Shown here in pieces: positions 6,550 to 56,119 of a stretch of 64,000 nt of DNA. Origin of the DNA: Eledone cirrhosa (lineage: Eukaryota); assembly GCA_964016885.1 (NCBI GenBank), contig OZ024743.1:7440001-7504000 (forward strand). The letters run 5' to 3'. How positions within the stretch are numbered: position 1 is the first letter of the stretch; each line of letters starts with the position of its first letter. The translations under genes were made by a program, and so were the position numbers. Below the pieces are notes generated by a model, which did not search any database, had not been told where the DNA came from, and saw only the letters and a program-made list of their open reading frames with translations.

Positions 6550-7310
6550 TTAACTTAGATGTACCAAACTTCACATTTACTTGATTTTCTGCATAGAAAG
6601 CCCACCCACATGAAACGTTGGCATCCCTTGTTACACTTGTATTACAGGTCCGTGACCTGCAAATGTCACGGGCTTGCAAAGGTCATATGGCTGTTCTCCT
6701 TTTTTTCTTCCCTCCTTCTGCTTTACAAATTAAATAACAATAAGAAAAGTAAAAATGTTAAGTTGCATTCTTGTTGACGTATGTAACTCTGTCAATTTCA
6801 GCTTCAGATCTAACTTGCTGGTTAATAATAATTTTTATTAAGGGTTGTTAGTTAAGTTATATAGATTTACGGTATCTGACGAGATCTGATAACTATCAGA
6901 TCTCGTCAGATCTCGTAATTATAACTAGTTACTGACATTGATTAAGGAGCGCTAATACTCTAGTATGATTTATAATTTTTGTCAGTCAGAAGAAATAGAG
7001 AATTACCCACAGCCATAGCAGACTCTCTAATTCTGGCAAGGTAGATGCAGATTTATTAAATAGCTTATTTATTTGTATAGAACCAACAGGTAGGAGACCC
7101 AGGGGTAGACCTCGAGCAAGATGGTTAGAGCACTATATATATATATATATTAGGATTGGTGCTCTGAAATAGCGATGTATACATGAATGTATGTATAGTA
7201 TATTTGTTGATATACTGTATATTTAACTAAAAATATTTTGAAGACCTTGCGCTATTATTTTAAAGTAGTGACTATGTCACTTACTTCTTTTTTCAGCAAA
7301 GGAAGGGAGA

Positions 7311-7356
7311 TAAGCTGACAGATCTGTTTCACATTGTTGGTGTTCATCAGAGCCTA
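7311..7356 (-). ncRNA. Minimal type I hammerhead ribozyme
   Basis: Minus strand: taggct-CTGATGA-aca ccaacaa tgt-GAAAC-agatct-GTC-agctta; complete core, stems I-III, GUC cleavage triplet. Confidence 0.8.
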
Positions 7357-7575
7357 GTACTCGCCGACCTCTGCCGAAAATTATAGAGGCTGGATTCTTA
7401 TAGAATTACAGTAATAATCAGGAACTGATTATACAGAGCGATTGCCGGTCCAGCAAAAATTAAAAATTAGGATTTTGCTGGACCGGCAATCGCTCTGTAT
7501 AATCAGTTCCTGATTATTACTGGAATTCTATAAGAATCCAGCCTCTATAATTTTCGGCAGAGGTCGGCGAGTACT

Positions 7576-7619
7576 AGGCTCTGATGAACACCAACAATGT
7601 GAAACAGATCTGTCAGCTT
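7576..7619 (+). ncRNA. Minimal type I hammerhead ribozyme
   Basis: aggct-CTGATGA-acaccaacaatgt-GAAAC-agatct-GTC-agctt; palindromic stem III ACAGATCTGT; predicted cleavage after 7614. Confidence 0.8.
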
Positions 7620-7666
7620 CTCTCCCTTCCTTTGCTGAAAAAAGAAGTAAGTGACATAGTCACTAC

Positions 7667-9773
7667 TTTAAAATAATAGCGCAAGGCCTTCAAAATGTTT
7701 AAAATAATAGCGCAAGGCCTTCAAAATGTTTAAAATAATAGCGCAAGGCCTTCAACATGTTTAAAATAATAGCGCAAGGCCTTCAACATGTTTAAAATAA
7801 TAGCGCAAGGTCTTCAAAATGTTTAAAATAATAGCGCAAGGCCTTCAACATGTTTAAAATAATAGCGCAAGGCCTTCAACATGTTTAAAATAATAGCGCA
7901 AGGCCTTCAACATGTTTAAAATAATAGCGCAAGGCCTTCAACATGTTTAAAATAATAGCGCAAGGCCTTCAAAATGTTTAAAATAATAGCGCAAGGCCTT
8001 CAACATGTTTAAAATAATAGCGCAAGGCCTTCAAAATGTTTAAAATAATAGCGCAAGGCCTTCAACATGTTTAAAATAATAGCGCAAGGCCTTCAAAATG
8101 TTTAAAATAATAGCGCAAGGCCTTCAACATGTTTAAAATAATAGCGCAAGGCCTTCAAAATGTTTAAAATAATAGCGCAAGGCCTTCAACATGTTTAAAA
8201 TAATAGCGCAAGGCCTTCAACATGTTTAAAATAATAGCGCAAGGCCTTCAACATGTTTAAAATAATAGCGCAAGGCCTTCAAAATGTTTAAAATAATAGC
8301 GCAAGGCCTTCAAAATGTTTAAAATAATAGCGCAAGGCCTTCAACATGTTTAAAATAATAGCGCAAGGCCTTCAAAATGTTTAAAATAATAGCGCAAGGC
8401 CTTCAACATGTTTAAAATAATAGCGCAAGGCCTTCAACATGTTTAAAATAATAGCGCAAGGCCTTCAACATGTTTAAAATAATAGCGCAAGGCCTTCAAA
8501 ATGTTTAAAATAATAGCGCAAGGCCTTCAACATGTTTAAAATAATAGCGCAAGGCCTTCAAAATGTTTAAAATAATAGCGCAAGGCCTTCAACATGTTTA
8601 AAATAATAGCGCAAGGCCTTCAAAATGTTTAAAATAATAGCGCAAGGCCTTCAACATGTTTAAAATAATAGCGCAAGGCCTTCAAAATGTTTAAAATAAT
8701 AGCGCAAGGCCTTCAACATGTTTAAAATAATAGCGCAAGGCCTTCAAAATGTTTAAAATAATAGCGCAAGGCCTTCAACATGTTTAAAATAATAGCGCAA
8801 GGCCTTCAACATGTTTAAAATAATAGCGCAAGGCCTTCAACATGTTTAAAATAATAGCGCAAGGCCTTCAAAATGTTTAAAATAATAGCGCAAGGCCTTC
8901 AACATGTTTAAAATAATAGCGCAAGGCCTTCAAAATGTTTAAAATAATAGCGCAAGGCCTTCAACATGTTTAAAATAATAGCGCAAGGCCTTCAAAATGT
9001 TTAAAATAATAGCGCAAGGCCTTCAACATGTTTAAAATAATAGCGCAAGGCCTTCAAAATGTTTAAAATAATAGCGCAAGGCCTTCAACATGTTTAAAAT
9101 AATAGCGCAAGGCCTTCAACATGTTTAAAATAATAGCGCAAGGCCTTCAACATGTTTAAAATAATAGCGCAAGGCCTTCAAAATGTTTAAAATAATAGCG
9201 CAAGGCCTTCAAAATGTTTAAAATAATAGCGCAAGGCCTTCAACATGTTTAAAATAATAGCGCAAGGCCTTCAAAATGTTTAAAATAATAGCGCAAGGCC
9301 TTCAACATGTTTAAAATAATAGCGCAAGGCCTTCAAAATGTTTAAAATAATAGCGCAAGGCCTTCAACATGTTTAAAATAATAGCGCAAGGCCTTCAAAA
9401 TGTTTAAAATAATAGCGCAAGGCCTTCAACATGTTTAAAATAATAGCGCAAGGCCTTCAAAATGTTTAAAATAATAGCGCAAGGCCTTCAACATGTTTAA
9501 AATAATAGCGCAAGGCCTTCAACATGTTTAAAATAATAGCGCAAGGCCTTCAACATGTTTAAAATAATAGCGCAAGGCCTTCAACATGTTTAAAATAATA
9601 GCGCAAGGCCTTCAACATGTTTAAAATAATAGCGCAAGGCCTTCAACATGTTTAAAATAATAGCGCAAGGCCTTCAACATGTTTAAAATAATAGCGCAAG
9701 GCCTTCAACATGTTTAAAATAATAGCGCAAGGCCTTCAACATGTTTAAAATAATAGCGCAAGGCCTTCAAAAT
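7667..9773. repeat. 31-bp tandem satellite, about 68 copies
   Basis: Unit TTTAAAATAATAGCGCAAGGCCTTCAA(A/C)ATG repeated with no spacers. Confidence 0.97.
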
Positions 9774-9774
9774 G

Positions 9775-12233: not shown

Positions 12234-12234
<1 letters not shown>

Positions 12235-12318
<84 letters not shown>
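12235..12318. repeat. (CTAT)n microsatellite at the start of the Tx1 nest
   Basis: Pure CTAT run. Confidence 0.97.
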
Positions 12319-12319
<1 letters not shown>

Positions 12320-12450
12320 CCTCTATTGGGGAAAATCGACTAACTTTTAAATTCCATCTGTGATAACATTTTACACGTTTTTATTGTATGTAAACTTCCC
12401 CCTTTGTATTTGTCCCCTTCTTTTGTGCCCCTGTGGCTAATAAAGAAATA
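12319..12450 (+). mobile_element. Tx1-like LINE 3' UTR-only insertion (subfamily C)
   Basis: Ends gtaaacttccccctttgtatttgtccc...gtggctAATAAAgaaatat then (CTAT)n; homologous to the 3' ends of the long copies. Confidence 0.75.
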
Positions 12451-12482
<32 letters not shown>

Positions 12483-12484
<2 letters not shown>

Positions 12485-12609
12485 ATTTTATTTTATTTTA
12501 TTTTTATATATTGTTATTGCCTCCTCCTTATTGACGACGCCTTGTTTTGTAAACTCCTCCCATTGTACTTGTCCCACTTTTGATGCCCTGGTGGCAAATA
12601 AAAGAAACA

Positions 12610-12610
<1 letters not shown>
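12483..12610 (+). mobile_element. Tx1-like LINE 3' UTR-only insertion (subfamily A)
   Basis: Closely matches the 3' UTR at about 14097-14216; (CTAT)n on both sides. Confidence 0.85.
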
Positions 12611-12646
<36 letters not shown>

Positions 12647-12647
<1 letters not shown>

Positions 12648-14216
12648 AGGTTCACAGGGGCTAAGCTGAACCGGGACAAGTCGATCGGTTTGCAACTCGG
12701 CACGTGGAGGGGCAGACCGATGCCCTCCGATGGCGTCGTCGGACGCTGGACGGAGGGCCCGGTGAAGTTGCTCGGGGTCTGGTTCGGACCGGACCTCCAG
12801 GTGGAGAAAAACTGGGCGGAGGTTACGAACAGGGTGTTTGCACTGACCCAGAAGTGGGCCAGTTGCAAACTATCTCTGAAAGGTCGGGCGGAGGTGGCGA
12901 ACACCTACATAGCGTCCGTCATCTACTACCGCCTGACCGTAGTGCCCTGCCCAAGGGAAACCCTCACCAAGATGGAGCGCGCGCTCTTCCAATTCCTTTG
13001 GAAGAGGCGGGCTCCTATGGTGAGGAGATCCATCTGCTGTCAACACCCTTCGAAAGGAGGGCTGGGGATGCCGTGGCTAATAATGCGTAAACACGCATTA
13101 AGGCTACGGCACCTCTACGTATTCCTCACCGGACAACCGGTGTGGGCCTCGTTTGTGAGACGAACCTTTCCCAGACTCGTCTCACTCACCGAGCTGCAAT
13201 CCTGGGTCAAGCAAAGACCGAGAAAACTGGGAGCCTGGCACACTGAGTGTGCCCAGGCGCTCACCGCCCTCTGGCAGGCGGATCCGGTTATCAGTGGAGA
13301 CTCCACCGCAACATTCTATAGAGGGCTGGTACGCAGCAGGTGCGACGACGCCCTCGGAGAAGCCCTAGACATGGAGGAGGACGAACTGGCCAGCCTGTTC
13401 GGTAGGACATTCAGCCCGGGACCTATGGACAACTTCCAGAAGTCCCTGGCCTGGCAGTGCTACCGAGGGGCTTTACCCGTTCGAGAAAGGCTCTACAGAC
13501 ACGGGCGCCCGGGTAGGGACCCCGCCAAAAAGATCTGTCCCAGATGCGTGTGCGACGAGGAAACCGTTGCACACGCATTGGTACACTGCTCGGGCGTAGC
13601 CGATCTGTGGGGCTATGTCGAACAACTGCTGTCAAGGGTGGGACCGATCCGGTTGACCACCGAGTCTATTGTAATGATCAAGCCGCCTCCCCCCTTCAAA
13701 GATGAAGCAGAGGCGGTGTTTCTGTGCGTAATAGCCATGGCGAAAGAGGTTGTATGGTGGACGCGTCTGAAAGGACTGAGGTCAGGCACCTTTCTCTCTG
13801 GCCAACAACTGGTCCGTTTCTTCCGATATCATTTCGGAAGAAGGATCAGGATGGAGAGAGAGGTGCTGCACCCCAGCCGTTTCTATGAAAGATGGGTGAA
13901 AGTGGCGAGAATGGCCCGTGTGAATGGGCCTTCACTCTACATCAGACTATAGGTGAGGAAGATGAAAGACCAAGGGAGCACCCCTTCTCTGTGCTCCTGA
14001 GGAGAAGGGTTGCACACTTTTTTCGGGGGTGTGTGCGACCCCCCAAGGCGCCTCCTCTCTATTGAGGATTTTGTTAAAAATTTTATTTTTTGTTATATCT
14101 TATTTTATTTTTATATTTTGTTATTGCCTCCTCCTTATTGAGGACGCCTTTTTGTGTAAACTCCCCCCTTTGTACTTGTCCCACTTTTGATGCCCTAGTG
14201 GCAAATAAAAGAAATA
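12647..14216 (+). mobile_element. 5'-truncated Tx1-like LINE (subfamily A): ORF2 C-terminal half plus 3' UTR
   Basis: Open frame to 13952 with KLLGVWF, LSLKGRA and GGLG motifs and the CCHC finger CPRC...ETVAHALVHC; AATAAA then (CTAT)n. Confidence 0.92.
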
Positions 14217-14252
<36 letters not shown>

Positions 14253-14254
<2 letters not shown>

Positions 14255-14293
14255 GTCCCCTTCTTTTGTGCCCCTGTGGCTAATAAAGAAATA

Positions 14294-14294
<1 letters not shown>
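14253..14294 (+). mobile_element. About 42-bp extreme 3' fragment of Tx1-like subfamily C
   Basis: Identical to the end of 12319-12450 (tgtccccttcttttgtgcccctgtggctaataaagaaatat); (CTAT)n on both sides. Confidence 0.8.
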
Positions 14295-14340
<46 letters not shown>

Positions 14341-16434
14341 ATAACCCTGCTAAACACAGAGTTAAAGATTTTGGCCAAGGTGTTAGCAAAGAGGTTGGCG
14401 CTTGTCGTGGGTGGCCTGGTGGGAGATGCGCAGACATGTGCTATCCCATCCAGGTCCATTCACGATAACCTCCACCTCATGCGATACATCATAGAGAGGG
14501 TTGGCAACAAACCCGGCTTCGGTGGAGCCCTGATCAACTTGGATCAGTCTAAGGCATTCGATAGGGTCGACCATGGTTACCTGGATGCGGTGCTAGCGGC
14601 GGCTGGGTTTGGTCCTGTTTTCAGAGGCGGGATCACTGCCTTACATAGCAACCACATCTGTTCTAGGATCAAGGTGAACGGCTACCTTTCGAAGCCGTTC
14701 GAAATCACACGATCCATTCGACAGGGGTGCCCTCTCTCCTCCCTTCTGTACGTATTGACTCTCGAGCCTTTACTGAGGAAATTGGAGTTGTTGCAGGGTA
14801 TCCCCCTGGAACCAGGATTGAGCAAAGCGGTGTCGGCCTACGCCGATGACGTAACAGTAATGGTATCGACCGACTCGGAAATCGAGGCGATCGGTACCTT
14901 ACTGGAGGATTACGAAAGGTTGTCAGGAGCGAAACTGAACCGGAAAAAATCCATCGGGCTGCAACTCGGAACGTGGAGAGGCAGACCGATGCCTCCCGAC
15001 GGTGTCGTCGGACACTGGACGGAGGGCCCAGTGAAGTTGCTTGGGGTCTGGTTTGGACCGGACCTCCAAGTGGAAAAGAACTGGGACGAGGTTACGAACA
15101 AGGTGTTTGCACTAACCCAGAAATGGGCCAAGTGTAAGCTGTCCCTAAAAGGTCGGGCGGAGGTGGCGAACATTTACATAGCGTCCGTCACCTACTACCG
15201 CCTGACTGTCGTGCCTTGCCCTAAGGAAACACTCACCACCATGGAACGCATGCTCTTCCAATTTCTTTGGAAGAAGCGCCCTCCTATGGTGAGAAGATCC
15301 ATCTGCTGCCAACAACCTTCGAAAGAAGGGCTGGGGATGCCGTGGTTGATGATGCGTAGGCACGCATTAAGGCTACGGCACCTACAGGTATTCCTCACTG
15401 GTCAACCGGTGTGGGCTCCGTTCGTGAAACGAGCCTTTCCGAGACTCGTCTCGCTCACCGAGCTGCAATCCTGGGTCAAGCAAAGATCCGGAAAACTGGG
15501 AGACTGGCACACTGAGTGTGCCCAGGCGCTCAGGGCTCTCTGGCAAGCGGGCCCGGCCATCGGTGGAGAATCCACCTCATCATTCTATAGAGGGCTGGTG
15601 GCTAGCAGGGGCAATGACACCCTTGGAGAGTCGCTGGACATGGAAGAGGACGAACTGGCCAGCCTGTTCGGTAGGACTTTCGGCCCGGGACCAATGGACA
15701 ACTTCCAGAAGTCACTAGCCTGGCAGTGCTACCGGGGGGCTCTACCCGTTCGAGAGACTTCTACAGACACGGGCGCCCGGGCAGGGATCCCTCGAAAAAG
15801 ATTTGCCCTAGATGCGTGTGTCACGAAGAAACCGTTGCGCACGCATTGGTGCAATGTCCGGGCGTGGCTGATCTGTGGGGCTACGCCGAACGACTGCTGT
15901 CGCGGGTGGCGCCGATTCGATTGACCGCCGAGTCCGTGATGACAATCAAGCCGCCTCCCCTCTTCACAAAGGAAGCAAAGGCGGTTTTTCTGTGCGTAAT
16001 AGCCATGTTGAAAGAGGTTATTTGGTGGACACGATTGAAAGGTCTGAGGTCAGGCAACTTCCTCTCTGGCCATAGTCTGGTCTACTTCTTCCGATATCAC
16101 TTCGGAAGAAGGATAAGAATAGAGAGAGAGGTGCTTGGCCACAGGCAGTTTTATGAAAGGTGGGTGATAGTGGCGAGAATGGCTCGTGTAAATGGGCCTT
16201 CTCTGTATACCATCCTGTGGGTAAAGAAGTGAAGGAGAGGGGAGCACCTTCTCCATGTGCTCCCCGGGCAAAGGATTGCACACTTTTTCGGGGGTGTGTG
16301 CAACCCCCATCACGTCCACTCCCTTTTGAGGTTGTTTTCGATTATTTTCATTTTATACTCTTTTTACTCGATTTTATGTAAACTCCCTCTTTGTATTTGT
16401 CCCTTCTTTTTATGCCTTTATGGTAAATAAAGAA

Positions 16435-16435
<1 letters not shown>
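14341..16435 (+). mobile_element. 5'-truncated Tx1-like LINE (subfamily B) with RT domain; frameshift near 15755
   Basis: LDQSKAFDRVDH, RQGCPLS and YADD motifs; C-terminal zinc finger continues in ORF 15726-16232; 3' UTR differs from subfamily A. Confidence 0.93.
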
Positions 16436-16523
<88 letters not shown>

Positions 16524-16541
16524 CCTATCTATCTATCTATC
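16436..16541. repeat. (CTAT)n spacer between Tx1 copies
   Basis: Near-pure CTAT run. Confidence 0.97.
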
Positions 16542-16763
16542 TCTCTGGGATGGACACACGCGTATAACTTGCTGAGTAAGTTCTGTTTAAATTTCTATAG
16601 AAATTCTTGTCTGTAAACTCTAATTTTTGTACCATTTTGTAGAGGGACTGCCAGGTCAAACTTTGATCTGGTCAGTCTCTCAAAATATTCTATGCCTTTA
16701 GGCGAAATAGTTAAACAAAAAAAAGTTTTTTTTTTCTTGTTGAAAAGTTAACATTTTTTTTAA

Positions 16764-18065
16764 ATGGCTGAAGCTTCTTCACCAAATTTCGAAGGAGGAA
16801 AGGGGAAGATAAACTTACAGCTTCCCCCTGCCACTGTCACAGTAGCAGAGGTCAAAAGCAAAGGTCAGCCAGAGGAAGGATTTTCTCCATCTGCTGACCG
16901 ACAACTTGACGTTGCCATGGCAACAAACCAAAAGACCAGCGGCACCAGCAACAACAACAACAACAATGCGACGGACGAAAACAACACCAATAACAATAAC
17001 AACAACAACAAGACCAATAACTGTGATAACAACAACAATGATAGCAACAACACCACCAACTACAACAGCAACACAAGCAGGGAAAAGGTCTCCTTCGCCC
17101 GGACGGCAAGGAAAACCCTCGACTATCTGCCAGTAGATATAACCAAAGCGAAGGAGCTACTGGCAGATGCCAAAAAATATATAGTGTACGGGAGTCTATC
17201 CATTCTCATGAAGGACAGGGACACAGCAGTGAAACTGTCCATCAAACCAATCACATCCACCGCATACACCTTCTACCCTACGTACATGGGTAGAAGAACA
17301 CAAAAAATAAAAATCCACACCATCCTGCCGATTATGGACATATGGTGGGTTTTGACAGGTTTCCTGAACCTGGATGATGACACGCTGGTGTCCATGGGAA
17401 AGGCATCGGGTGACGCGTTCAGTGGAACGAGCCTCGAACTTGTAGTTCAAATGAGGCCCGAATGGATCGCCCAGATCCCTGAACGCGTCATACTGGATGA
17501 TCAAACTTTCATCAACATTACCGTTGAGAGTAGGCGGCCCACGTGTTACCTCTGCGGAACCAGAGGTCACCTGAGGGCTGTCTGTCCCTAACTTAATAAG
17601 AAAACCCCAATCCTGCCTACATCACCAACAACTGCACAACCAACACAATCACCACAACTACCACTACAAAAACAACAATCACAGCTCAAACCAAAACAAA
17701 ACAATGTCCAACCCATCCTCCCCACTAAAAAAAAAACAATTTCCAAAACACCCGCACCGCAAACACAACCCGAAAATATACCCCTCCCCTCCAACGCGGA
17801 AGATGACCCTAGTTCGTCGTCAGACGAGGAGGAGCACTTCCACACAATCAAAAGAAAAAAAATGAAAACACACCTCAGACACACAAATGAAAACAACCCC
17901 TCCCCAAAACATAACACTGACACCAACACAAAAGAGCTCACAACAACAGCAAACAAAAAACACCACACAAAAACAAAAACATGCATACACATACATAAAC
18001 ACAAGAAACAAAAAACTGTTAAACATTGTGTACAACAACAATACAATAAAAACCCAAGGGCCTAA
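16764..18065 (+). pseudogene. Tx1-like ORF1 (gag-like, zinc knuckle), in-frame stop at 17589-17591
   Basis: CYLCGTRGHLRAVC knuckle and poly-Asn tract; the same frame continues as a Pro/Thr/Lys-rich tail to 18065. Confidence 0.75.
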
Positions 18066-18218
18066 CTTCACCCAGGCAGGGGATTTCCCCCACCTCAAAA
18101 TGATTAAGGCCCCACAGGACACTTATAAAACTTTAAAAAACAATTTTAAAGAGGACGTGGGTCCCCCCTGCGTCGGGCCCATTAACCGCGTCCTTCTCAA
18201 AAACTACCCCACCCCCTA

Positions 18219-20989
18219 AGTTGTCCAAAAATGAGCATGGTTGGCTATTCAGACCACAAGTTAGTGAGCTGCATGGTCAACCTTGACAGAACTCATAGAC
18301 AGGGACCCGGTTACTGGAAGCTCAACTTGTCCTTACCGGCAAGTAAGGCTTACAGGGACCGGATTAGCACTTTAGTTAAGGAGCGGTTGACGGGCGCCAT
18401 CGTCAACAGCAGGTGGTGGGGATCTCTCAAAAGAGAGATTAGAGTAGTCTCTATAGAATTTAGTAAGGAGTTAGCCTCAAATAGAAATAGGAAGGAAAGG
18501 GAGTTGGTAGATAGTGTAAAAGAGGCAATTAGAAGCGGCGACGTGGCCAGAGTGCTAGCGTCGAGAACGGCCCTGGGCCAGTTCTTCGACGCGAAACACG
18601 AAGGCTGCATCGTCCGAAGCAAAATACGTGCTCTGGGAAACGAGGGGACCAAAGCTGTTAGCTGGGCCCGCGTGACAGAAGCCAAAAGAGGGAGTAGATC
18701 CACTATGCGGTCTTTGCGAGACCAGGACGAACGGGTGATCCTTGAACCTAAGCAGATGTGCGAGGCTTCTCAAAAGCACTTTGCCGGATTGTTCGGAAGG
18801 GGCGGGGAGCCGGTTGGGGATGTGGACTTCGGTCCATACCTCGACGGCCTGCCGCGTCTCGCGGACAGGGAGGCGAAGTCCTGCGAGGAGCCGATTTCAG
18901 CCGCTGAGATAGAGGACGTGCTAAGCCAATGCGGCAAACGCAAATCCCCGGGTCTCGATGGTCTTCCATACGAACTATATCTAGCTATGCCGGACTTGTT
19001 CCCCGAACTCCTCGAGGCGGTCTACTGCAACTGGCAACAGAACGGGAGAATTCCTCACGCTAGTGAGGAAGGACGAGAACAAGGGGGACGATATAAATAA
19101 CTTCAGGCCCATAACTCTGCTAAATACAGAGTTACAGATTTTGGCCAAGGTTCTAGCAAAGAGGTTGGCGCTTGTCGTGGGTAACCTGGTGGGAGATGCG
19201 CAGACATGTGCTATCCCGTCCAGGTCCATCCATGACAACCTCCACCTCATGCGATACATCATAGAGAGGGTTGGGAACGAACCCGGCTTTGGTGGGGCCC
19301 TGATCAACTTGGATCAATCTAAGGCATTCGATAGGGTCGACCATGGTTACCTGGATGCGGTGCTAGCGGCGGCAGGCTTCGGACCCGTTTTCAGGGGCTG
19401 GATCAATGCCATGCACAGCAGCCGCATCTGCTCTAGGGTCAAGGTGAACGGCTACCTCTCGGAGCCGTTCGAAATCGCGCGGTCCATCCGACAAGGGTGC
19501 CCTCTCTCCTCCCTTCTGTATGTAATGACTCTAGAGCCACTGATGCGGAAGTTGGAGTTGTTGCAGGGCATCCCGTTGGAACCGGGATTGCGGAAAGCGG
19601 TGTCGGCCTACGCCGACGACGTAACAGTAATGGTGTCGACGGCCTCGGAAATCGGGGCGATCGGCACCTTACTGGAGGAGTACGAAAGGTTTACAGGAGC
19701 TAAGCTGAACCGGGACAAGTCGATCGGTCTGCAACTCGGCACGTGGAGGGGCAGATCGATGCCCTCCGATGGCGTCGTCGGGCGCTGGACGGAGGGCCCG
19801 GTGAAATTGCTCGGGGTCTGGTTCGGACCAGACCTCCAGGTGGAGAAGAACTGGTGTGAGGTAATGAACAGTGTTTGCACTGACCCAGAAGTGGGCCGAG
19901 TGCAAACTGTCCCTGAAAGGTCGGGCGGAGGTGGCGAACACTTATATAGCGTCCGTCATCTACTACCGCCTGACCGTTGTGCCTTGCCCAAGGGAAACGC
20001 TCGCCAAAATGGAGCGCGCACTCTTCCAATTCTTTTGGAAGAAGCGGGCTCCTATGGTGAGGAGATACATCTGCTGTCAACACCCTCCGAAAGGAGGGCT
20101 GGGGATGCCGTGGCTAATGATACGTAAACACGCATTAAGGCTACGGCACCTCCAGGTATTCCTCACCGGTCAACCGTTGTGGGCCCCGTTTGTGAGGCGA
20201 GCCTTTCCCAGACTCGTCTCACTCACCGAGCTGCAATCCTGGGTCAAGCAAAGACCGAGAAAACTGGGCGCCTGGCACACCGAGTGTGCCCAGGCGCTCA
20301 CGGCTCTCTGGCAGGCGGACCCGGCTGTCAGTGGAGAATCCACCTCGTCATTCTATAGAGGGCTGGTGGTTAGCAAGTGCGACGACGCCCTCGGAGAAGC
20401 CCTAGGCATGGAGGAAGACGAACTGGCAAACCTGTTCGGTAGGACATTCAGCCCGGGACCCATGGATAACTTCCAGAGGTCCCTGGCCTGGCAGTGCTAC
20501 CGGGAGGCTCTGCCCGTTCGAGAAAGACTCTACAGACACGGGCGCCCGGGTAGGGACCCCTCGAAAAAGATCTGTCCCAGATGCGTGTGCGACAAGGAAA
20601 CCGTGTCCCACCGGCTTGGGACACTGCTCGGGCATTGCCATCTGTGGGGCTATGTCGAACAACTGCTGTCAAGGGTGGGACCGATCCGGTTGACCCCCAA
20701 GTCTATTGTAACGATCAAGCCGCCTCCCCTCTTCAAAAACGAAGGAGAGGCAGTGTTTCTGTGCGTAATAGCCATGGCGAAAGAGGTTGTATGGTGGACG
20801 CGTCTGAAAGGACTGAGGTCAGACACCTTTCTCTCTGGCCAACAACTGGTCCGTTTCTTCCGATATCATTTCGGAAGAAGGATCAGGATGGAGAGAGAGG
20901 TGCTGCACCCCAGCCGTTTTTATGAAAGATGGGTGAAAGTGGCGAGAATGGCCCGTGTGAATGGGCCTTCACTCTACATCAGACTATAG
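18219..20989 (+). pseudogene. Tx1-like ORF2 (end of APE, RT, zinc finger) with two frameshifts
   Basis: Starts near SDHKLV (last APE motif); frameshifts near 19055 and 19871. Confidence 0.88.
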
Positions 20990-21389
20990 GTGAGGAAGAT
21001 GAAAGACCAAGGGAGAACCCCCTCTGTGTGCTCCTGAGGAGAAGGGTTGCACACTTTTTTTCGGGGGTGTGTGCGACCCCCCAAGGCGCCTCCTCCCTAT
21101 TGAGGATTTTGTTATAAAATTTCTTTTGTTATATTTTATTTTATTTTTATACTTTTATATCTTGTTATTGCCTCCTCCATATTGAGGACGCCTTTGCATG
21201 TAAACTCCCCCCATTGTACTTCTCCCACTTTTGATGCCCTGGTGGCAAATAAAAAGAAAGTTTTCTAACTGACTGTCTATTTATCTATTTGCAATTTACA
21301 GGATTATACAGTCTTCGTCTGCCAAATTTGCCTCACAAGGCGTTGGTCAAGCCGAGACTATAGTAGAAGACACTTAAAGTGCATTATAA

Positions 21390-21578: not shown

Positions 21579-21974
21579 CATGAACACGTTATTCAAAATA
21601 TAAAAAAGATAAACATATACAATATGTACCTAGTCGAAGATTATTTAAATGATAAAATCCCCTCTTCAATCACTTAATTTCTGCTCTAATAACAAAAAAC
21701 AAAACAAACATTTTTAGCCTCCTAGATACTTCCCTAAAGACCACATATATAACAGTCTGTTCAATGAATACACAATCAACATTTTCTGCTACATTTCACA
21801 CAATTTTGTTTCCCAAAACGTAACCAAATAAAGCAATAGTTAGCAAAATAATCGTTATATAAGCTCCATGAAATGAACTGGGTGTTCTTTCGCTTGGAAA
21901 CTTATATATATATATTTATGGATAGTAGAGTGTGACTATATTAAAAAGAGTCGGGGCCCGACGGCTGAGCTCTT

Positions 21975-22600
21975 GCCGTTTCAACAGTTAATTTCATATA
22001 TGTATTGTCTTGTTGAAATCGTGAAGTGCCGTCAGTATGGAATACAGAACATCGTGAGCGCGTGCAAAATGCTGGCTTCAAAGAATTATAAAAGAAAACC
22101 TGAGAAGGTCTGTATGTGCCTTCATGGATCACTGTGCAAAAAATATGGATATCAAGTGTTCCGATATGTGGTACAAGCATGATGACATCAAATTCAAAAT
22201 ACTTTGTGATTTCATTATCCAAACGGACCGCAGAACACATCAGACCTGATATTGTATTTATGCTAAAAAGCAAACAGGCGTGGATGCCAAATTATTGATG
22301 TTTCCATTCCAGGATACCACATCATAGTCTTAAGGGAAATTGAAAAAATAACAAAATATACAGACTTGAAGATCGAAATTGCACGAATGTGGTCAGTATC
22401 ACTTCACAACTTAAAATAATTCTAGTTGTGATCGGAGTTTTGGACTCGATATCACTAAAACTGAGAGGATATCTTGAGTAACTAGACGTTGAATCACAAA
22501 TTGCTCTCCTACAAAGACTATTCTGTTGGGAACTGTACATATACCCAGAAAAGTACCGCCAGTCTAAGGTCTTTGTTGAGACTCGGTCTGAGGTAGAAGA
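21975..22600 (+). mobile_element. Degraded RLE-type non-LTR retrotransposon remnant (R4/Dong-like)
   Basis: Frameshifted motifs HIVSACKMLA, RPDIV, IIDVSIP and EIEKITKYTDLKIEIARMW. Confidence 0.7.
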
Positions 22601-22723: not shown

Positions 22724-24340
22724 ATGTATCATATCTACATTCATATATACTTGTGTATAATATCAATATGCACATTACACATGTATCATATCTACCTGCG
22801 TATAATATCAATATACACATTACACATGTATCATATCTACCTGCGTATAATATCAATATGCACATTACACATGTATCATATCTACCTGCGTATAATATCA
22901 ATATGCACATTACACATGTATCATATCTACCTGCGTATAATATCAATATACACATTACACATGTATCATATCTACCTACGTATAATATCAATATACACAT
23001 TACACATGTATCATATCTACCTGCGTATAATATCAATATGCACATTACACATGTATCATATCTACCTGCGTATAATATCAATATGCACATTACACATGTA
23101 TCATATCTACCTGCGTATAATATCAATATACACATGTATCATATCTACCTGCGTATAATATCAATATACACATTACACATGTATCATATCTACCTGCGTA
23201 TAATATCAATATACACATTACACATGTATCATATCTACCTGCGTATAATATCAATATACACATGTATCATATCTACCTGCGTATAATATCAATATACACA
23301 TTACACATGTATCATATCTACCTGCGTATAATATCAATATACACATTACACATGTATCATATCTACCTGCGTATAATATCAATATGCACATTACACATGT
23401 ATCATATCTACCTGCGTATAATATCAATATACACATTACACATGTATCATATCTACCTGCGTATAATATCAATATGCACATTACACATGTATCATATCTA
23501 CCTGCGTATAATATCAATATGCACATTACACATGTATCATATCTACCTGCGTATAATATCAATATACACATTACACATGTATCATATCTACCTGCGTATA
23601 ATATCAATATGCACATTACACATGTATCATATCTACCTGCGTATAATATCAATATGCACATTACACATGTATCATATCTACCTGCGTATAATATCAATAT
23701 ACACATGTATCATATCTACCTGCGTATAATATCAATATACACATTACACATGTATCATATCTACCTGCATATAATATCAATATACACATTACACATGTAT
23801 CATATCTACCTGCGTATAATATCAATATACACATTACACATGTATCATATCTACCTGCGTATAATATCAATATACACATTACACATGTATCATATCTACC
23901 TGCGTATAATATCAATATACACATGTATCATATCTACCTGCGTATAATATCAATATACACATTACACATGTATCATATCTACCTGCGTATAATATCAATA
24001 TACACATTACACATGTATCATATCTACCTGCGTATAATATCAATATACACATTACACATGTATCATATCTACCTGCGTATAATATCAATATGCACATTAC
24101 ACATGTATCATATCTACCTGCGTATAATATCAATATACACATGTATCATATCTACCTGCGTATAATATCAATATACACATGTATCATATCTACCTGCGTA
24201 TAATATCAATATACACATGTATCATATCTACCTGCGTATAATATCAATATACACATGTATCATATCTACCTGCGTATAATATCAATATACACATGTATCA
24301 TATCTACCTGCGTATAATATCAATATACACATTACACATG
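22724..24340. repeat. 45-bp minisatellite with 38-bp deletion variants
   Basis: Unit CATGTATCATATCTACCTGCGTATAATATCAATAT(A/G)CACATTACA; some units lack 7 bp. Confidence 0.97.
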
Positions 24341-31105: not shown

Positions 31106-31470
31106 AAACACCAGCAAACATTTGTTTAATTCTATAAATATATATTTCTACTTAAAATAATTAAATACATTATATATTCAATATACAAAAATTATTTAAA
31201 ATCATTTTGTTACAAATTTCATCATACTGATCTTTATGTTTCTAGCTGTTTAATTAATTCATTTACAATAATTTCATGTATAGAATCATTCTTTGATATA
31301 ACAACATATAATTCAATTTAATTATCAATAACTTAATAATCTAATTATCAACTAATAGTCTTTATGTTGCTAGACTTCATTTATATTAATAATACAGTTT
31401 TGTTGTTTAATTTCCTTTACACTTGTTTTGAAGATTCTGAGCACTTTCTATCTATCTATCTATCTATCTA

Positions 31471-33670
31471 GTCACGCTAGTGAGGAAGGACGAGAACAAG
31501 GGGGACGAAATAAGTAACTTCAGGCCCATAACACTGCTAAATACAGAGTTACAGATTTTGGCCAAGGTGCTAGCAAAGAGGTTGGCGCTTGTCGTGGGCA
31601 ACCTGGTGGGAGATGCGCAGACATGCGCTATCCCGTCCAGGTCCATCCATGACAACCTCCACCTCATGCGATACATCATAGAGAGGGTTGGGAACGAACC
31701 CGGCTTTGGTGGGGCTCTGATCAACTTGGATCAATCTAAGGCGTTCGATAGGGTCGACCATGGTTACCTGGATGCGGTGCTAGCGGCGGCAGGCTTCGGA
31801 CCCGTTTTCAGGGGCTGGATCACTGCTATGCACAGCAGCCGCATCTGCTCTAGGGTCAAGGTGAACGGCTACCTCTCGAGCCGTTCAAAATCGCGCGGTC
31901 CATCCGACAAGGGTGCCCTCTCTCCTCCCTTCTGTATGTGTTGACTCTCGAGCCACTACCGCGGAAGTTGGAGTTGTTGCAGGGCATCCCTTTGGAACCG
32001 GGATTGCGGAAAGCGGTGTCGGCCTACGCCGATGACGTGACAGTAATGGTGTCGACGGCCTCCGAAATCGAGGCGGTCGGCACCTTACTGGAGGAGTACG
32101 AAAGTTCACAGGGCTAAGCTGAACCGGGACAAGTCGATCGGTTTGCAACTCGGCACGTGGAGGGGCAGACCGATGCCCTCCGATAGCGTCGTCGGACGCT
32201 GGACGGAGGGCCCGGTGAAGTTGCTCGGGTCTGGTTCGGACCGGACCTCCAGGTGGAGAAAAACTGGGCGGAGGTTACGAACAGGGTGTTTGCACTGACC
32301 CAGAAGTGGGCCAGTTGCAAACTATCCCTGAAAGGCCGGGCGGAGGTGGCGAACACCTACATAGCGTCCGTCATCTACTACCGCCTGACCGTAGTGCCCT
32401 GCCAAGGGAAACCCTCACCAAGATGGAGCGCGCGCTCTTCCAATTCCTTTGGAAGAGGCGGGCTCCTATGGTGAGGAGATCCATCTGCTGTCAACACCCT
32501 TCGAAAGGAGGGCTGGGGATTGCCGTGGCTAATGATGCGTAAACACGCATTAAGGCTACGGCACCTCTACGTATTCCTCACCGGACAACCGGTGTGGGCC
32601 TCGTTTGTGAGACGAACCTTTCCAGACTCGTCTCACTCACCGAGCTGCAATCCTGGGTCAAGCAAAGACCGAGAAAACTGGGCGCCTGGCACACTGAGTG
32701 TGCCCAGGCGCTCACCGCCCTCTGGCAGGCGGATCCGGTTATCAGTGGAGACTCCACCGCAACATTCTATAGAGGGCTAGTACGCAGCAGGTGCGACGAC
32801 GCCCTCGGAGAAGCCCTAGACATGGAGGAGGACGAACTGGCCAGCCTGTTCGGTAGGACATTCAGCCCGGGACCTATGGACAACTTCCAGAAGTCCCTGG
32901 CCTGGCAGTGCTACCGAGGGGCTTTACCCGTTCGAGAAAGGCTCTACAGACACGGGCGCCCGGGTAGGGACCCCGCCAAAAAGATCTGTCCCAGATGCGT
33001 GTGCGACGAGGAAACCGTTGCACACGCATTAGTACACTGCTCGGGCGTAGCCGATCTGTGGGGCTATGTCGAACAACTGCTGTCAAGGGTGGGACCGATC
33101 CGGTTGACCACCGAGTCTATTGTAATGATCAAGCCGCCTCCCCCCTTCAAAGATGAAGCAGAGGCGGTGTTTCTGTGCGTAATAGCCATGGCGAAAGAGG
33201 TTGTATGGTGGACGCGTCTGAAAGGACTGAGGTCGGGCACCTTTCTCTCTGGCCAACAACTGGTCCGTTTCTTCCGATATCATTTCGGAAGAAGGATCAG
33301 GATGGAGAGAGAGGTGCTGCACACCCCAGCCGTTTCTATGAAAGATGGGTTGAAAGTGGCGAGAATGCCCGTGTGAATGGGCCTTCACTCTACATCAGAC
33401 TATAGGTGAGGAAGATGAAAGACCAAGGGAGCACCCCTTCTCTGTGCTCCTGAGGAGAAGGGTTGCACACTTTTTTCGGGGGTGTGTGCGACCCCCCAAG
33501 GCGCCTCCTCTCTATTGAGGATTTTGTTAAAAATTTTATTTTTTGTTATATCTTATTTATTTTTATATTTTGTTATTGCCTCCTCCTTATTGAGGACGCC
33601 TTTTTGTGTAAACTCCCCCCTTTGTACTTGTCCCACTTTTGATGCCCTAGTGGCAAATAAAAGAAATATA
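31471..33670 (+). mobile_element. 5'-truncated Tx1-like LINE (subfamily A) inside a separate (CTAT)n tract
   Basis: RT motifs; 3' part nearly identical to 12647-14216; (CTAT)n at 31448-31470 and 33670-33703; many 1-bp indels. Confidence 0.92.
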
Positions 33671-33703
33671 TCTATCTATCTATCTATCTATTTATCTATC
33701 TAT

Positions 33704-35725
<2,022 letters not shown>

Positions 35726-40547: not shown

Positions 40548-41566
40548 TGTTTATGCCGGGTTCAATCGGGGGTAAACACAGTAAGTAACGTACTCAAAAC
40601 ACAGAAGATTATGAATATTTAATATAGAAATGGCTTCTACAGGACTAGAACTGTTTCATCCGTATAGAAATCATCAGGAAAGCCCTGATGATTTCCATAC
40701 GAATGAAACAGTTCTAGTCCTGTGGAAGCAAAGCGTGGACTAAGTTCTAAGACCTTGAAAAAATCACTGCCTACTAGGTCGGTGGCAAATTCAAAAGAAT
40801 CAATCACGTGACATCGAGGTTAATCAGTGAGGAGTGGTTTGTTAAGAAGACAGCAGCCGAACCGTTACTATGAACTATAGGAGCAGTTTTGGCAAATTTT
40901 GGCTCAACAAAATAATTTGGAGATAATTATAAAGAATTAGTATATCTACCAACATATATATACAGATGCATACCTATGCCATCAAATATATAGGTTTTGT
41001 CTTAGTAACTTTGTGGTTCAATGCATGGGGATGCAGAACAATAATATCTCCAAATTATTTTGTTGAGCCAAAATTTGCCAAAACTGCTACTATAGTTCAT
41101 AGTAATGGTTCGGCTGCTGTCTTCTTAACAAACCACTCCTCACTGATTAACCTCGATGTCACGTGATTGATTCTTTTGAATTTGCCACCGACGCAGTAGG
41201 CAGTGATTTTTTCAAGGTCTTGGAATTTAGTCCACGCTTTGCTTTTTTCCATCCACTGAATTATTTTTGTATAAGTTCCCTGTGTCCACGCATTGCCTGG
41301 AAACTTAGCTGAGAATAGACTTCCCTGATGACGAAAGGACTTCTCCGTGGATTTCTTCGGAAACCATGTTTATTCCCTTTCAGAAACTAATTAGTTGGAG
41401 TGAAATTTTAGTAAGTAAGTTAATTTTTATAATTTTCTTATTTTACGTCTTTCATATTATTGTTCTGCATCCCCATGCATTGAACCACAAAGTTACTAAG
41501 ACAAAACCTATATATTTGCTGGCATAGGTATACATCTGTATATATATGTTAGTAGATATACTAATT

Positions 41567-50189: not shown

Positions 50190-50358
50190 TTCAAATTTTC
50201 AATGCCCTAGGGACTGCATTAGGCGATTTAGCGATCTCTCTCTATAATTCTTAGTCTTTCTCTTTTTAGATAGATACATAGATATAACGTTGCGCCCTTA
50301 TAATATCTGTCTGTATGTCTGGCTGTCTGCATTACGACATTATGACGCTGTGTGTGTA

Positions 50359-50450
<92 letters not shown>

Positions 50451-50576
50451 CGTCATAATGTCGTAATACAGACAGCCAGATATCTATGTATCTATCTAAA
50501 AAGAGAAAGACAAAGAATTATAGAGAGAGATCGCTAAATCGCCTAATGCGGTCCCCAGGGCATTGGAAATTTGAAA
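50190..50576. repeat. Inverted repeat centred on a (TG)/(TA)/(CA) microsatellite
   Basis: About 50190-50358 is the reverse complement of about 50440-50576, with an indel of about 30 bp. Confidence 0.88.
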
Positions 50577-51670: not shown

Positions 51671-52860
51671 ATTACAGGGAAAAATGCGGGCGCATGTACA
51701 GAAATATTCTTAAATTAATAAACCTAGAAAAGTAAAGGACAAGTTATTACACCTGGAAAAGTAAAGGACAAGAAAACTTCTTCTTAAAACTTCTTAAAAT
51801 ATTGCAGCTATAGTATAAATTTGAATAATAAAAAATATTTGATTTAAATATACATAGAAAGTGATAAATTCTAATAATACAGTTGACTCTCTAATTGATA
51901 ATAATACTAATTTATGATCATTTATTTAATTTTGTGATCCTAATTTACACCATAGTGGTTGGGTCATTAAATAAATATACTTTATTTTACTTTACTAAAT
52001 GGGACTGAAAAAATGAGTGACAATTATAAACATCAAATAAAACAAAATTTTGGCGTGTAAATGACACTAACAATTAATTAATAATTAATTAGGGAGCCAA
52101 CTGTAATGATTAATAACAAATTATAATTGTTTAATAATGAAATTTAAGACCTGTCAGAGATCAAAATAACCAATCTACATTTTTAGGTAGAGTAAAATTA
52201 GACTAAAATTAAAAATTAAACATTGTCTAATTCAACAGTTCATCTAATGAATTGATGAATTCACTATAATTGATTGATTCACTATAAATGAATAATTGAT
52301 GAATTGACTAATTTTGCCCCTTGAGATGTTGAATTTTACTATATTATAAAAAAAATCTGTAATACTCATAAAAAGTGCAATTATATGATGCACTGTTTTT
52401 GATTTATTTTACTGCATTATTTTATAACTAAATTTTTAAAAATATAATTTGATTAAGAGTGAAAATTTTTAAATATCTTATAACATAAATTAATAAATTG
52501 TACATATTAATTATTATTATTATTAATTAATTATTGTACAAATTATTGTACAAATTTTATTTTAAAAAGATTAATTTGTATACACCAAGAAAAAAATTAA
52601 GTATACAGTAGTCAACTCTCCCTATAAGACAGTCATTTTTCCAGTCCTTTAAAGTGATATGTTTTTAACAATTAACTTATAATTATTTATTTTTAGTTTT
52701 ATAATCTAAATATTTTTTTTCAAATTTAGACTTTAGCTGCAATATTTTAAGAAGTTTTCTTGTCCTTTACTTTTCCAGGTGTAATAACTTGTCCTTTACT
52801 TTTCTAGGTTTATTAATTTAAGAATATTTCTTTACATGCGTCCGCATTTTTCCCTGTAAT
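51671..52860. repeat. About 130-bp inverted repeats enclosing about 0.9 kb of very AT-rich DNA
   Basis: 51671-51810 (ATTACAGGGAAAAATGCGG...) matches the reverse complement of 52735-52860. Confidence 0.85.
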
Positions 52861-52968
52861 CCACTTTTTTTCCAGGCAATGCAAGGATATTATATTAATA
52901 TTAATAAAAATATTTATCAACAAATAAGTTAAATAATAATGAATAGGAAGAAGTGCAGATAGGAAAAG

Positions 52969-53041
52969 TAATAAGGGTGGGAATCGAACCCACGACCTTC
53001 GGATTGCCGGTCCGCTGCTCTACCGACTGAGCTACCTGACC
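52969..53041 (-). pseudogene. tRNA-like sequence, anticodon GGC (Ala-like); probably repeat-borne
   Basis: GGTCAGGTAGCTCAGTCGGTAGAGCAGCGGACCGGCAATCCGAAGGTCGTGGGTTCGATTCCCACCCTTATT; intact D and T arms, weak acceptor stem. Confidence 0.7.
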
Positions 53042-53542: not shown

Positions 53543-54635
<1,093 letters not shown>

Positions 54636-54923
54636 CAAATAACGAAACGAAATTAAATTTCGTTTCGTTTGTAACTCACTTTTGTATGACTGACGCTTAA
54701 ACAATTAAGTTAAAAATGTACATCCACATATGTATACTGAAATACTAGTATGCATATGAATACACACACGTATACATATGTAGATGTACCAAGTCTTTCA
54801 CTGGTCACTTTACTGTGAGTGTCCAGCTATTCTGTATGTAAACACACAGACAAACCGGTTTTTAGAGTCATACTGGTTTTTGAGGAAACACCTTTCCTCT
54901 ATTCTCCAGAAAGCCAGACAAGG

Positions 54924-54968
54924 AATATTGAACTAGTTTCGTTGTTGTTACAACTCATCAGCAATATT
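54924..54968 (-). ncRNA. Minimal type I hammerhead ribozyme
   Basis: Reverse complement of 55799-55843. Confidence 0.85.
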
Positions 54969-55389
54969 TACCTATCTACCGGCCTTTCTGGAGAATCGTA
55001 AAAGCACATATCTTTATATGCTTTTTCTATGAAAATTAGTAGTGAGCAGACTAATTTGCATAGAGTGTGAGTACGCACCGGTTCAACGGAGACGATAAAA
55101 ACAAATAACGAAACGAAATTAAATTTCGTTTCGTTTGTAACTCACTTTTGTATGACTGACGCTTAAACAATTAAGTTAAAAATGTACATCCGCATATGTA
55201 TACTGAAATACTAGTATGCATATGAATACACACACGTATACATATGTAGATGTACCAAGTCTTTCACTGGTCACTTTACTGTGAGTGTCCAGCTATTCTG
55301 TATGTAAACACACAGACAAACCGGTTTTTAGAGTCATACTGGTTTTTGAGGAAACACCTTTCCTCTATTCTCCAGAAAGCCAGACAAGG

Positions 55390-55434
55390 AATATTGAACT
55401 AGTTTCGTTGTTGTTACAACTCATCAGCAATATT
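55390..55434 (-). ncRNA. Minimal type I hammerhead ribozyme
   Basis: Identical motif 466 bp from the previous copy. Confidence 0.85.
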
Positions 55435-55798
55435 TACCTATCTACCGGCCTTTCTGGAGAATCGTAAAAGCACATATCGTTATATGCTTTTTCTATGAAA
55501 ATTAGTAGTGGGCAGACTAATTTGCATAGAGTGTGAGTACGTACCGGTTCAACTAGTATTTCAGTATACATATGCGGATGTACATTTTTAACTTAATTGT
55601 TTAAGCGTCAGTCATACAAAAGTGAGTTACAAACGAAACGAAATTTAATTTCGTTTCGTTATTTGTTTTTATCGTCTCCGTTGAACCGGTACGTACTCAC
55701 ACTCTATGCAAATTAGTCTGCCCACTACTAATTTTCATAGAAAAAGCATATAACGATATGTGCTTTTACGATTCTCCAGAAAGGCCGGTAGATAGGTA

Positions 55799-55843
55799 AA
55801 TATTGCTGATGAGTTGTAACAACAACGAAACTAGTTCAATATT
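55799..55843 (+). ncRNA. Minimal type I hammerhead ribozyme
   Basis: aatattg-CTGATGA-gttgt aaca acaac-GAAAC-ta-GTT-caatatt; 7-bp stem I, 5-bp stem II, palindromic ACTAGT stem III. Confidence 0.87.

Positions 55844-56061: not shown

Positions 56062-56119
<58 letters not shown>

What the first reader, a model, noticed from the sequence alone, without database searches (positions are those of the whole stretch)
12235..21290. Head-to-tail nest of Tx1-like LINEs apparently specific for (CTAT)n microsatellites
Seen: six same-orientation insertions (about 130 bp, 130 bp, 1.6 kb, 42 bp, 2.1 kb, 4.7 kb) with at least three distinct 3' UTRs, each separated by pure (CTAT)n, with different 5' truncation points. 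Known: Tx1-clade elements include sequence-specific families such as Kibi (TC repeats), Koshi (TTC repeats), Keno (U2 snRNA) and Mutsu (5S rDNA). Inference: a lineage targeting (CTAT)n/(ATAG)n in a fixed orientation, with several subfamilies repeatedly hitting one tract. I do not recall a described CTAT-specific family in molluscs.
Basis: partly seen in the sequence, partly recalled or inferred. Interest (0 to 1): 0.82.

Follow-up and report, generated by a model that had tools for sequence, protein, structure and literature searches.

The report
Octopod LINE nesting in CTAT microsatellites
Six broken copies of a jumping gene (a LINE retrotransposon) sit head to tail with CTAT repeats between them, and a seventh copy 10 kb away also has CTAT on both sides, so this is likely a family that aims at CTAT microsatellites, a likely new target for a known kind of repeat-targeting element.

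Summary
Observation confirmed. Six same-strand LINE copies (129, 124, 1568, 38, ~2095, 4713 bp; three 3'-UTR types) lie at 12320-21259, each preceded by (CTAT)n. An unlisted seventh copy (31471-33666), truncated at a different point, also has (CTAT)n on both sides. All 10 perfect CTAT-class runs of 12 bp or more in the window lie at element ends, in one orientation; none occur in the other 52.7 kb. The distal 3' flanks of two copies are more decayed than the copies, so the tracts likely pre-existed. Corrections: the last copy has only a degenerate CTAT-like 3' flank and lacks the endonuclease core; close relatives keep an intact one. The proteins are L1-type, closest named relative Argonauta hians; Tx1 placement is likely but could not be tested on a tree with named references. 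The genome-wide flank test could not be run (no genome held; read mapping showed 20 of 1327 loose ends), so specificity rests on two loci. Microsatellite-targeting Tx1 families are known (TC, TTC, TTCC/TTTC); I found no CTAT family in nine searches, but Repbase was not checkable. Verdict: real, a new target variant of a known kind.

The parts
12234..12319 (+). (CTAT)21.5, outermost 5' tract; not preceded by any element 3' end
12320..12448 (+). Copy A: 5'-truncated, 3' UTR type 1, ends with AATAAA plus four bases, no poly(A)
12451..12483 (+). (CTAT)8 spacer
12484..12607 (+). Copy B: 5'-truncated, 3' UTR type 2; its 5' junction shares 5 bases with the homologous source sequence in C
12610..12646 (+). 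(CTAT)9 spacer
12647..14214 (+). Copy C: 5'-truncated after the RT core; open ORF2 C-terminal part with zf-RVT (E 7e-6), 3' UTR type 2; young (98.8% identical to G)
14217..14253 (+). (CTAT)9 spacer
14254..14291 (+). Copy D: last 38 bases of 3' UTR type 1 (37/37 identical to A)
14294..14340 (+). (CTAT)12 spacer
14341..16435 (+). Copy E: truncated at the start of RT (RVT_1 E 3e-22), one frameshift near 15756, 3' UTR type 3
16436..16546 (+). (CTAT)28 spacer with one CTAC unit, ending in a few CT units
16547..21259 (+). Copy F: near full length but dead. 5' UTR; ORF1 from 16764 with CCHC knuckle (E 0.02-0.03) and later stops; ORF2 homology starts at 18216 just before the last endonuclease motif (SDH), endonuclease core absent; RT (E 6e-26); short deletion after 19054; 3' UTR type 2
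21265..21288 (+). Degenerate CTAT-like 3' flank of F (5 of 24 mismatches), likely the old end of the original tract
31447..31470 (+). (CTAT)6 directly 5' of the independent copy G
31471..33666 (+). Copy G: independent solo insertion, truncated just before RT, 3' UTR type 2 (last 299 bases identical to C)
33669..33724 (+). 3' flank of G: 23 bp pure CTAT, then 33 bp decayed CTAT/CAAT/CCAT units, running on into (CT)n and (TA)n

Best explanation
These are seven insertions of one L1-type LINE lineage, likely Tx1 clade, that likely targets pre-existing (CTAT)n microsatellites in a fixed orientation, probably through an endonuclease that would nick the ATAG strand. Shown: common strand, CTAT at every 5' end, a common 3' end a few bases after AATAAA with no poly(A), different truncation points, three subfamilies of different age. 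Inferred: ORF2p nicks the (ATAG)n strand and primes reverse transcription there; because AATAAA lies only 4-8 bases from the element end, the transcript would carry a few CUAU units from its own flank, which could pair with the nicked strand and skip the poly(A). Each insertion leaves target on both sides, so later subfamilies hit the same tract again and build the nest. The copies here are dead products; the active enzyme came from intact copies elsewhere.
For: 7 of 7 5' ends lie directly against CTAT; two of these (A, G) have no upstream element whose tail could supply it. 10 of 10 CTAT-class runs lie at element ends in one orientation, while the far commoner AT (226 runs), ACAT (19) and AC (16) runs carry no copy. 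Control: of 11 pieces of another dispersed repeat, 1 has an 8-bp CTAT-class seed within 30 bases, and none can have a run of 12 bp or more. F carries 3.1% private substitutions in ORF2 but its flank differs from CTAT at 5 of 24 sites (binomial P 0.0008); such 24-mers make up 53 of 52,589 background positions. G carries 0.47% private substitutions, yet its distal flank has 5 substitutions and 1 insertion in 33 bases (counted by eye; P 4e-7 at G's rate, 0.002 at 3%). Free compound (CTAT)n(CA)n(TA)n and (ATAG)n(AG)n tracts with no element beside them exist in related animal DNA (3 of 3 loci). Close relatives P0337 and P0121 keep an APE endonuclease with the catalytic motifs. 0 of 7 copies has a poly(A) tail. 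Precedent: Kibi, Koshi and crocodilian Tx1 families (PMC4494074, passages).
Against: Only two loci, one of them chosen for having the pattern. No endonuclease of this family is present in the window, so the nicking step cannot be examined even in sequence. No free CTAT tract exists in the window, so the pre-insertion state is not seen, and microsatellite flanks can decay faster than coding DNA, which weakens the age argument. F lacks pure CTAT at its 3' junction, which fits the pairing step poorly. The sister lineage (52-53% RT identity) forms head-to-tail arrays without CTAT, so stacking alone needs no microsatellite.
Confidence: 0.55

Rival explanations
1. Same targeting, different cause: a loosely specific endonuclease nicks widely, and insertion succeeds only where an element-borne (CUAU)n RNA tail pairs with an (ATAG)n primer.
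For: No poly(A) in 7 of 7 copies; 6 of 7 continue into pure CTAT within 2 bases; fixed orientation follows directly from pairing. PMC1950540 (passages) names RNA-target pairing as a possible extra filter on integration.
Against: F joins a degenerate site with no pure unit at the junction. [quoted passage not shown]
Confidence: 0.27
2. The tracts are born from the element: insertion at a short CTAT-like seed, duplication of the seed, then slippage; the 5' tracts of A and G would be expanded duplications or tail-only insertions.
For: No free CTAT run of 12 bp or more in 52.7 kb, while nine 8-bp seeds exist; the pure tracts on either side of G are both 23-24 bp.
Against: Decayed distal flanks at F and G look older than the copies; free CTAT compound tracts occur in related animal DNA.
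Confidence: 0.12
3. Self-targeting or unequal crossover builds head-to-tail stacks, and CTAT is only a tail.
For: A sister lineage forms long head-to-tail arrays, including two consecutive units with the same truncation point.
Against: Here every copy has its own truncation point and three subfamilies are mixed; A and G have CTAT on the 5' side with no upstream element.
Confidence: 0.04
4. Assembly artefact, or passive accumulation near repeats.
For: G shows many single-base indels typical of long-read error (18 gap openings against E); the region is repeat-rich.
Against: Copies differ by 1-16% in a way that follows codon structure (pN/pS 0.2-0.5); junctions are base-precise; public run X1 holds contigs along the whole of F (30 of 30 bins).
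Confidence: 0.02

Closest known systems
Kibi (TC)n and Koshi (TTC)n, teleost Tx1 clade; crocodilian Tx1 families in (TTCC)n/(TTTC)n (PMC4494074, passages; PMC3812793, passages)
   Same: APE-type LINE found inside one microsatellite type, with the repeat on both sides of truncated copies
   Different: Target is (CTAT)n/(ATAG)n, not a pure pyrimidine/purine repeat; host is an octopod by homology; kinship to Kibi/Koshi not tested
Waldo (ACAY)n and Mino (AC)n of insects; Dong (TAA)n, including DongBg of the snail Biomphalaria (PMC3812793, passages)
   Same: Microsatellite-targeting non-LTR elements; a tetranucleotide target (Waldo) and a mollusc host (DongBg) each have precedent
   Different: Other clades (R1 for Waldo/Mino by the cited title; R4 for Dong, recalled) and other targets; best solved match here is L1 ORF2p
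L1-Tx1 families of Octopus vulgaris (PMC13282606, parts 1-2 of 3 and supplement search)
   Same: 80 L1-Tx1 families, 56 Mb, 13 recently active; this family or a relative is probably in such a library
   Different: No insertion-site or target analysis in the text read; CTAT, ATAG, GATA and 'target site' 0 times in the supplement; the deposited consensus library was not visible
Sister array-forming lineage (loci L081-L119, G001)
   Same: Same 21-row clade (support 100); CCHC ORF1 homologous to F's (E 1e-8); AATAAA close to the 3' end; head-to-tail arrangement
   Different: Mostly full-length intact units, short non-repetitive spacer, no CTAT; endonuclease hairpin segment two residues longer

Membership tests
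L1-type (APE) non-LTR retrotransposon | RT domain in ORF2 | tested here: met
   RVT_1 E 6e-26 (F), 3e-22 (E); best solved match of the close relative P0337 is L1 ORF2p, E 1e-50, against 4e-22 for R2
L1-type (APE) non-LTR retrotransposon | N-terminal APE endonuclease | tested here: inconclusive
   Core absent from every copy in the window; only the final SDH motif remains in F. Present in P0337 (59% identical to F's ORF2 start) and P0121
L1-type (APE) non-LTR retrotransposon | C-terminal cysteine/histidine zinc motif | tested here: met
   zf-RVT E 7e-6 in C (27.0 bits, cut-off 27.5); 36.4 bits in P0122
L1-type (APE) non-LTR retrotransposon | Common 3' end, variable 5' truncation | tested here: met
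   summed contig depth in run X1 rises from about 0.4-2.5e4 over ORF1 to 2-9e5 over most of ORF2 from the RT on (not a copy number)
Tx1 clade | Type I ORF1 (RRM plus CCHC knuckle) rather than Transposase_22 (PMC5203782, passages) | tested here: inconclusive
   CCHC weak in F (E 0.018-0.027, below cut-off), above cut-off in the homologous ORF1 of L085 (E 1.6e-4); no Transposase_22 hit; RNA-binding domain only a lead at score 0.87-0.89
Tx1 clade | RT groups with named Tx1 references | not testable with these tools
   Tree of 55 rows (quick method) holds no named Tx1 or L1 reference
Microsatellite-specific family (criterion: one sequence in over 20% of flanks, PMC4494074) | Target repeat in flanks of copies, including 5'-truncated ones | tested here: met
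   7 of 7 copies, 2 of 2 loci, in this window only
Microsatellite-specific family (criterion: one sequence in over 20% of flanks, PMC4494074) | Same result over all genomic copies | not testable with these tools
   No genome held; read mapping showed 20 of 1327 loose ends; no further copy
Microsatellite-specific family (criterion: one sequence in over 20% of flanks, PMC4494074) | Endonuclease nicks the target | not testable with these tools
   Needs an assay
Kibi / Koshi | Target (TC)n or (TTC)n | tested here: not met
   Target is (CTAT)n; the 4 AG-class and 2 AAG-class runs in the window carry no copy directly, though F's 5' junction ends in a few CT units

The most novel reading that the evidence does not exclude
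A cephalopod Tx1-like lineage has an endonuclease specific for (ATAG)n and is itself the main maker of CTAT tracts in its host, each insertion splitting and duplicating the tract into new landing sites. Its sister lineage switched to pure head-to-tail arrays with a short regenerated spacer and a longer endonuclease hairpin, so the pair is a natural experiment on how LINE target choice changes.
Probability: 0.2. Interest if true: 0.65.

Novelty: new variant of a known kind. Interest (0 to 1): 0.42.

Why it matters
How LINEs target microsatellites is poorly understood (PMC3812793, passages), and the Tx1 microsatellite targets named in the papers read are pyrimidine/purine repeats of vertebrates. 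A young, abundant CTAT-targeting family in an octopod adds a mixed-base target in an invertebrate, with intact endonucleases available in close relatives and a sister lineage with a different target, so endonuclease versus RNA pairing becomes directly testable. Practical points: CTAT/GATA markers in octopods may carry kilobase insertions, and repeat-targeting LINEs are candidates for site-directed gene insertion. It does not overturn anything: microsatellite-specific LINEs are an established kind.

Tried and rejected
Whole-genome flank count: no genome held. Read mapping on F: only 20 of 1327 loose ends shown, none a 5' junction of this family with a readable flank; raw-read runs X22 and X23 gave 27 and 9 reads, all only partly on the stretch, so they do not hold the element; this is no evidence either way. 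No RNA holder listed. Searches for further copies: metagenome contigs with the close-family alignment 0 of 68; genome contigs 0 of 42; viral contigs 0 of 43 and none; 3'-end DNA motif 0 and 0; AATAAA-plus-CTAT pattern 6 and 0 matches, and 0 of 6 had any element homology. The broad search (80 kept of 236 relatives) gave only distant elements (28-45%); some end in CT, TTGT or ATTG repeats but none of the 30 metagenome loci scanned has a CTAT run. Translated CTAT repeats (tandem LSIY) in fetched proteins: 0 of 328. ORF1 homologue search: 0 of 567 candidates. Rfam: no RNA-gene target in the window or in L085 and L113; one tRNA far away. Earlier findings: nothing. Supplement of PMC4494074, which holds flank data, could not be read, and its tree figure listing targets is not held; both may bear on novelty. 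The first flank-mismatch count was offset by one base and ignored an insertion; replaced. Rejected: F as an intact full-length element; a segmental duplication linking C and G (different truncation points and flanks); an endonuclease-less family (close relatives have one; whether F's loss is private was not settled).
Full report
Observation. The region is as described. Six CTAT tracts (86, 33, 38, 37, 47 and 112 bp) each precede a + strand copy of a LINE: A 12320-12448, B 12484-12607, C 12647-14214, D 14254-14291, E 14341-16435, F 16547-21259. All end four to eight bases after AATAAA and none has a poly(A) tail. The 3' UTRs fall into three types, A/D, B/C/F and E; ORF2 DNA identities are 92.4% (C-F), 85.2% (E-F) and 83.9% (C-E). 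Two details differ from the finding: F has no pure CTAT at its 3' end, and F is not intact.

What the element is. E and F encode a reverse transcriptase and C a C-terminal zinc motif. F has an ORF1 with a weak CCHC knuckle, homologous to the ORF1 of a relative where the knuckle passes the Pfam cut-off. F's ORF2 homology starts at 18216, just before the last endonuclease motif; no endonuclease core is found anywhere in the window by tblastn or by a profile search. Close relatives keep an intact APE endonuclease: P0337 and the Argonauta hians protein P0121. F therefore carries an internal deletion of about 215 codons (estimated from the alignment to P0110); run X1 also shows 131 contigs that continue differently after 19054, where F has a short deletion. 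The closest named protein is from Argonauta hians (66% over the whole query), so the host is likely an octopod (inference). In a quick RT tree of 55 rows, E and F group with the Argonauta protein and three unnamed ones (support 99), inside a 21-row clade (100) that includes cuttlefish proteins. The best solved match is L1 ORF2p. The tree holds no named Tx1 reference, so Tx1 membership rests on the ORF1 type (PMC5203782, passages) and remains likely, not shown.

Target or tail? Spacers inside a nest could be tails of the upstream copy, so only outermost 5' junctions test the claim. A has 86 bp of CTAT on its 5' side. A self-search found a seventh copy, G at 31471-33666, 98.8% identical to C (9 mismatches in 1572 columns) but truncated about 630 bases further upstream, in different flanks; it has 24 bp of CTAT directly 5'. 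In the whole window, 10 of 10 perfect CTAT-class runs of 12 bp or more lie at element ends on the element strand, whereas 226 AT, 19 ACAT and 16 AC runs carry no copy. The remaining 52,659 bases have nine 8-bp seeds and no longer run; 1 of 11 pieces of another dispersed repeat has an 8-bp seed nearby.

Did the tracts pre-exist? Over 424 shared codons, private substitutions per site are 3.1% for F, 0.47% for G and 0.16% for C. F's 3' flank differs from (CTAT)6 at 5 of 24 sites (P 0.0008 at F's rate), yet is CTAT-like beyond background (53 of 52,589 positions; allowing for the five-base offset this is roughly 0.5%, my estimate). G's distal flank has 5 substitutions and one insertion in 33 bases, counted by eye, and runs on into (CT)n and (TA)n. 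Similar compound tracts with no element beside them occur at 3 of 3 loci examined in related animal DNA. This favours insertion into existing tracts. The caveat is that repeats can decay and spread variant units faster than coding DNA, and no empty site was seen.

Mechanism. Shown: orientation, junctions, truncation, absence of poly(A), subfamily mixture. From established L1 biology: target-primed reverse transcription from an endonuclease nick, the endonuclease being the main determinant of target choice (PMC4494074, passages), with the betaB6-betaB5 hairpin affecting specificity and RNA-target pairing as a possible second filter (PMC1950540, passages). Inferred: the nick falls on the (ATAG)n strand; cleavage downstream of AATAAA (10-30 bases, recalled) would leave a few CUAU units on the RNA that could pair with the primer; target remains on both sides of each insertion, so the tract is hit again by later subfamilies. 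F, the most decayed copy of its type, is likely early; C and G are recent. I put targeting by any route at about 0.82 (endonuclease-led 0.55, pairing-led 0.27), birth of the tracts from the element at 0.12, stacking or artefact at 0.06. The hairpin segment of the close relatives aligns to human L1 without gaps and is two residues shorter than in the sister lineage; this is a correlation only.

Results against or limiting. The genome-wide test failed for lack of data: no genome; read mapping displayed 20 of 1327 loose ends, and the two raw-read runs did not hold the element; no further copy was found in the collections. Twenty runs from 16 studies hold part of C, nine of them half its words or more; I laid two of these twenty, X1 (30 of 30 bins) and X5 (25 of 30). 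The sister lineage, found as animal DNA in a bacterial genome bin (39 loci, 52-53% RT identity; 81 matches in G001), forms head-to-tail arrays with no CTAT between units, so arrays do not need a microsatellite and CTAT use is not a trait of the whole clade.

Comparison and novelty. Known microsatellite-targeting LINEs: Kibi (TC), Koshi (TTC), crocodilian Tx1 (TTCC/TTTC) (PMC4494074, passages); Waldo (ACAY), Mino (AC), Dong (TAA, including a snail element) (PMC3812793, passages). Mutsu (5S rDNA) is recalled, not read. Octopus vulgaris has 80 L1-Tx1 families, 13 recently active, with no target analysis in the parts read (PMC13282606, parts 1-2 of 3 and supplement search). PMC10294476, PMC8967140 and PMC13295347 (passages) mention no such target. 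Nine searches listed no paper on a CTAT/ATAG-specific family; the library lacks most subscription papers, including Kojima and Fujiwara 2004 (seen only as a citation), and Repbase, Dfam and the supplement of PMC4494074 could not be read. It works like Kibi/Koshi but is not a member by target.

Verdict. Real, correctly read and strengthened by an independent copy; a new target variant of a known kind, resting on two loci. Interest 0.42.

Noticed in passing
L081-L119; G001 contigs C3-C19: Animal DNA in a bacterial genome bin holds long head-to-tail arrays (period about 6.4-6.8 kb) of mostly intact full-length relatives: 81 matches, most with open frames of 1143-1181 aa. Units are joined by a spacer of about 12 bases that also follows the last unit before unique DNA and precedes 5'-truncated units; it varies between subfamilies. 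No microsatellite and no Rfam match. Possibly a self-regenerating target or unequal crossover; may merit its own study.
   Followed up: partly
window 18186-18260: F jumps from ORF1-like sequence straight to the last endonuclease motif; whether this loss is private or marks a non-autonomous subfamily is open.
   Followed up: partly
window 21940-22570: Decayed fragment that reads like the C-terminal end of a restriction-endonuclease-type LINE (HC motif, then PD..D and K motifs; family recalled, not searched).
   Followed up: no
window 52968-53041 (-): tRNA-like gene (Rfam 61 bits; ARAGORN calls Ala with anticodon GGC, unusual for an animal by recall) just outside an inverted repeat pair at 51671-51848 and 52698-52860.
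   Followed up: no
window 7231-7700, 40726-41244, 50190-50575, 55164-56069, 63741-63847: Several long near-perfect palindromes (108-916 bp, 77-98%).
   Followed up: no
window 7667-9774, 22741-24340, 54629-55553: Minisatellites of 31 bp (68 copies) and 45 bp (37 copies), and a 466-bp tandem duplication.
   Followed up: no
window 16570-16645: F's 5' UTR holds a splice-donor-like hexamer and, about 65 bases on, a pyrimidine tract ending in AG; by eye only.
   Followed up: no
L004, L009, L029 (5' ends); L014, L017 (3' ends): Distant relatives on metagenome contigs begin with (CT)n or end with (TTGT)n or (ATTG)n, so other microsatellite associations may exist in this group.
   Followed up: no
P0006, P0341: A protein of this animal LINE family is filed in NCBI under Herbaspirillum sp. 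on a 1775-bp contig, likely host contamination.
   Followed up: no
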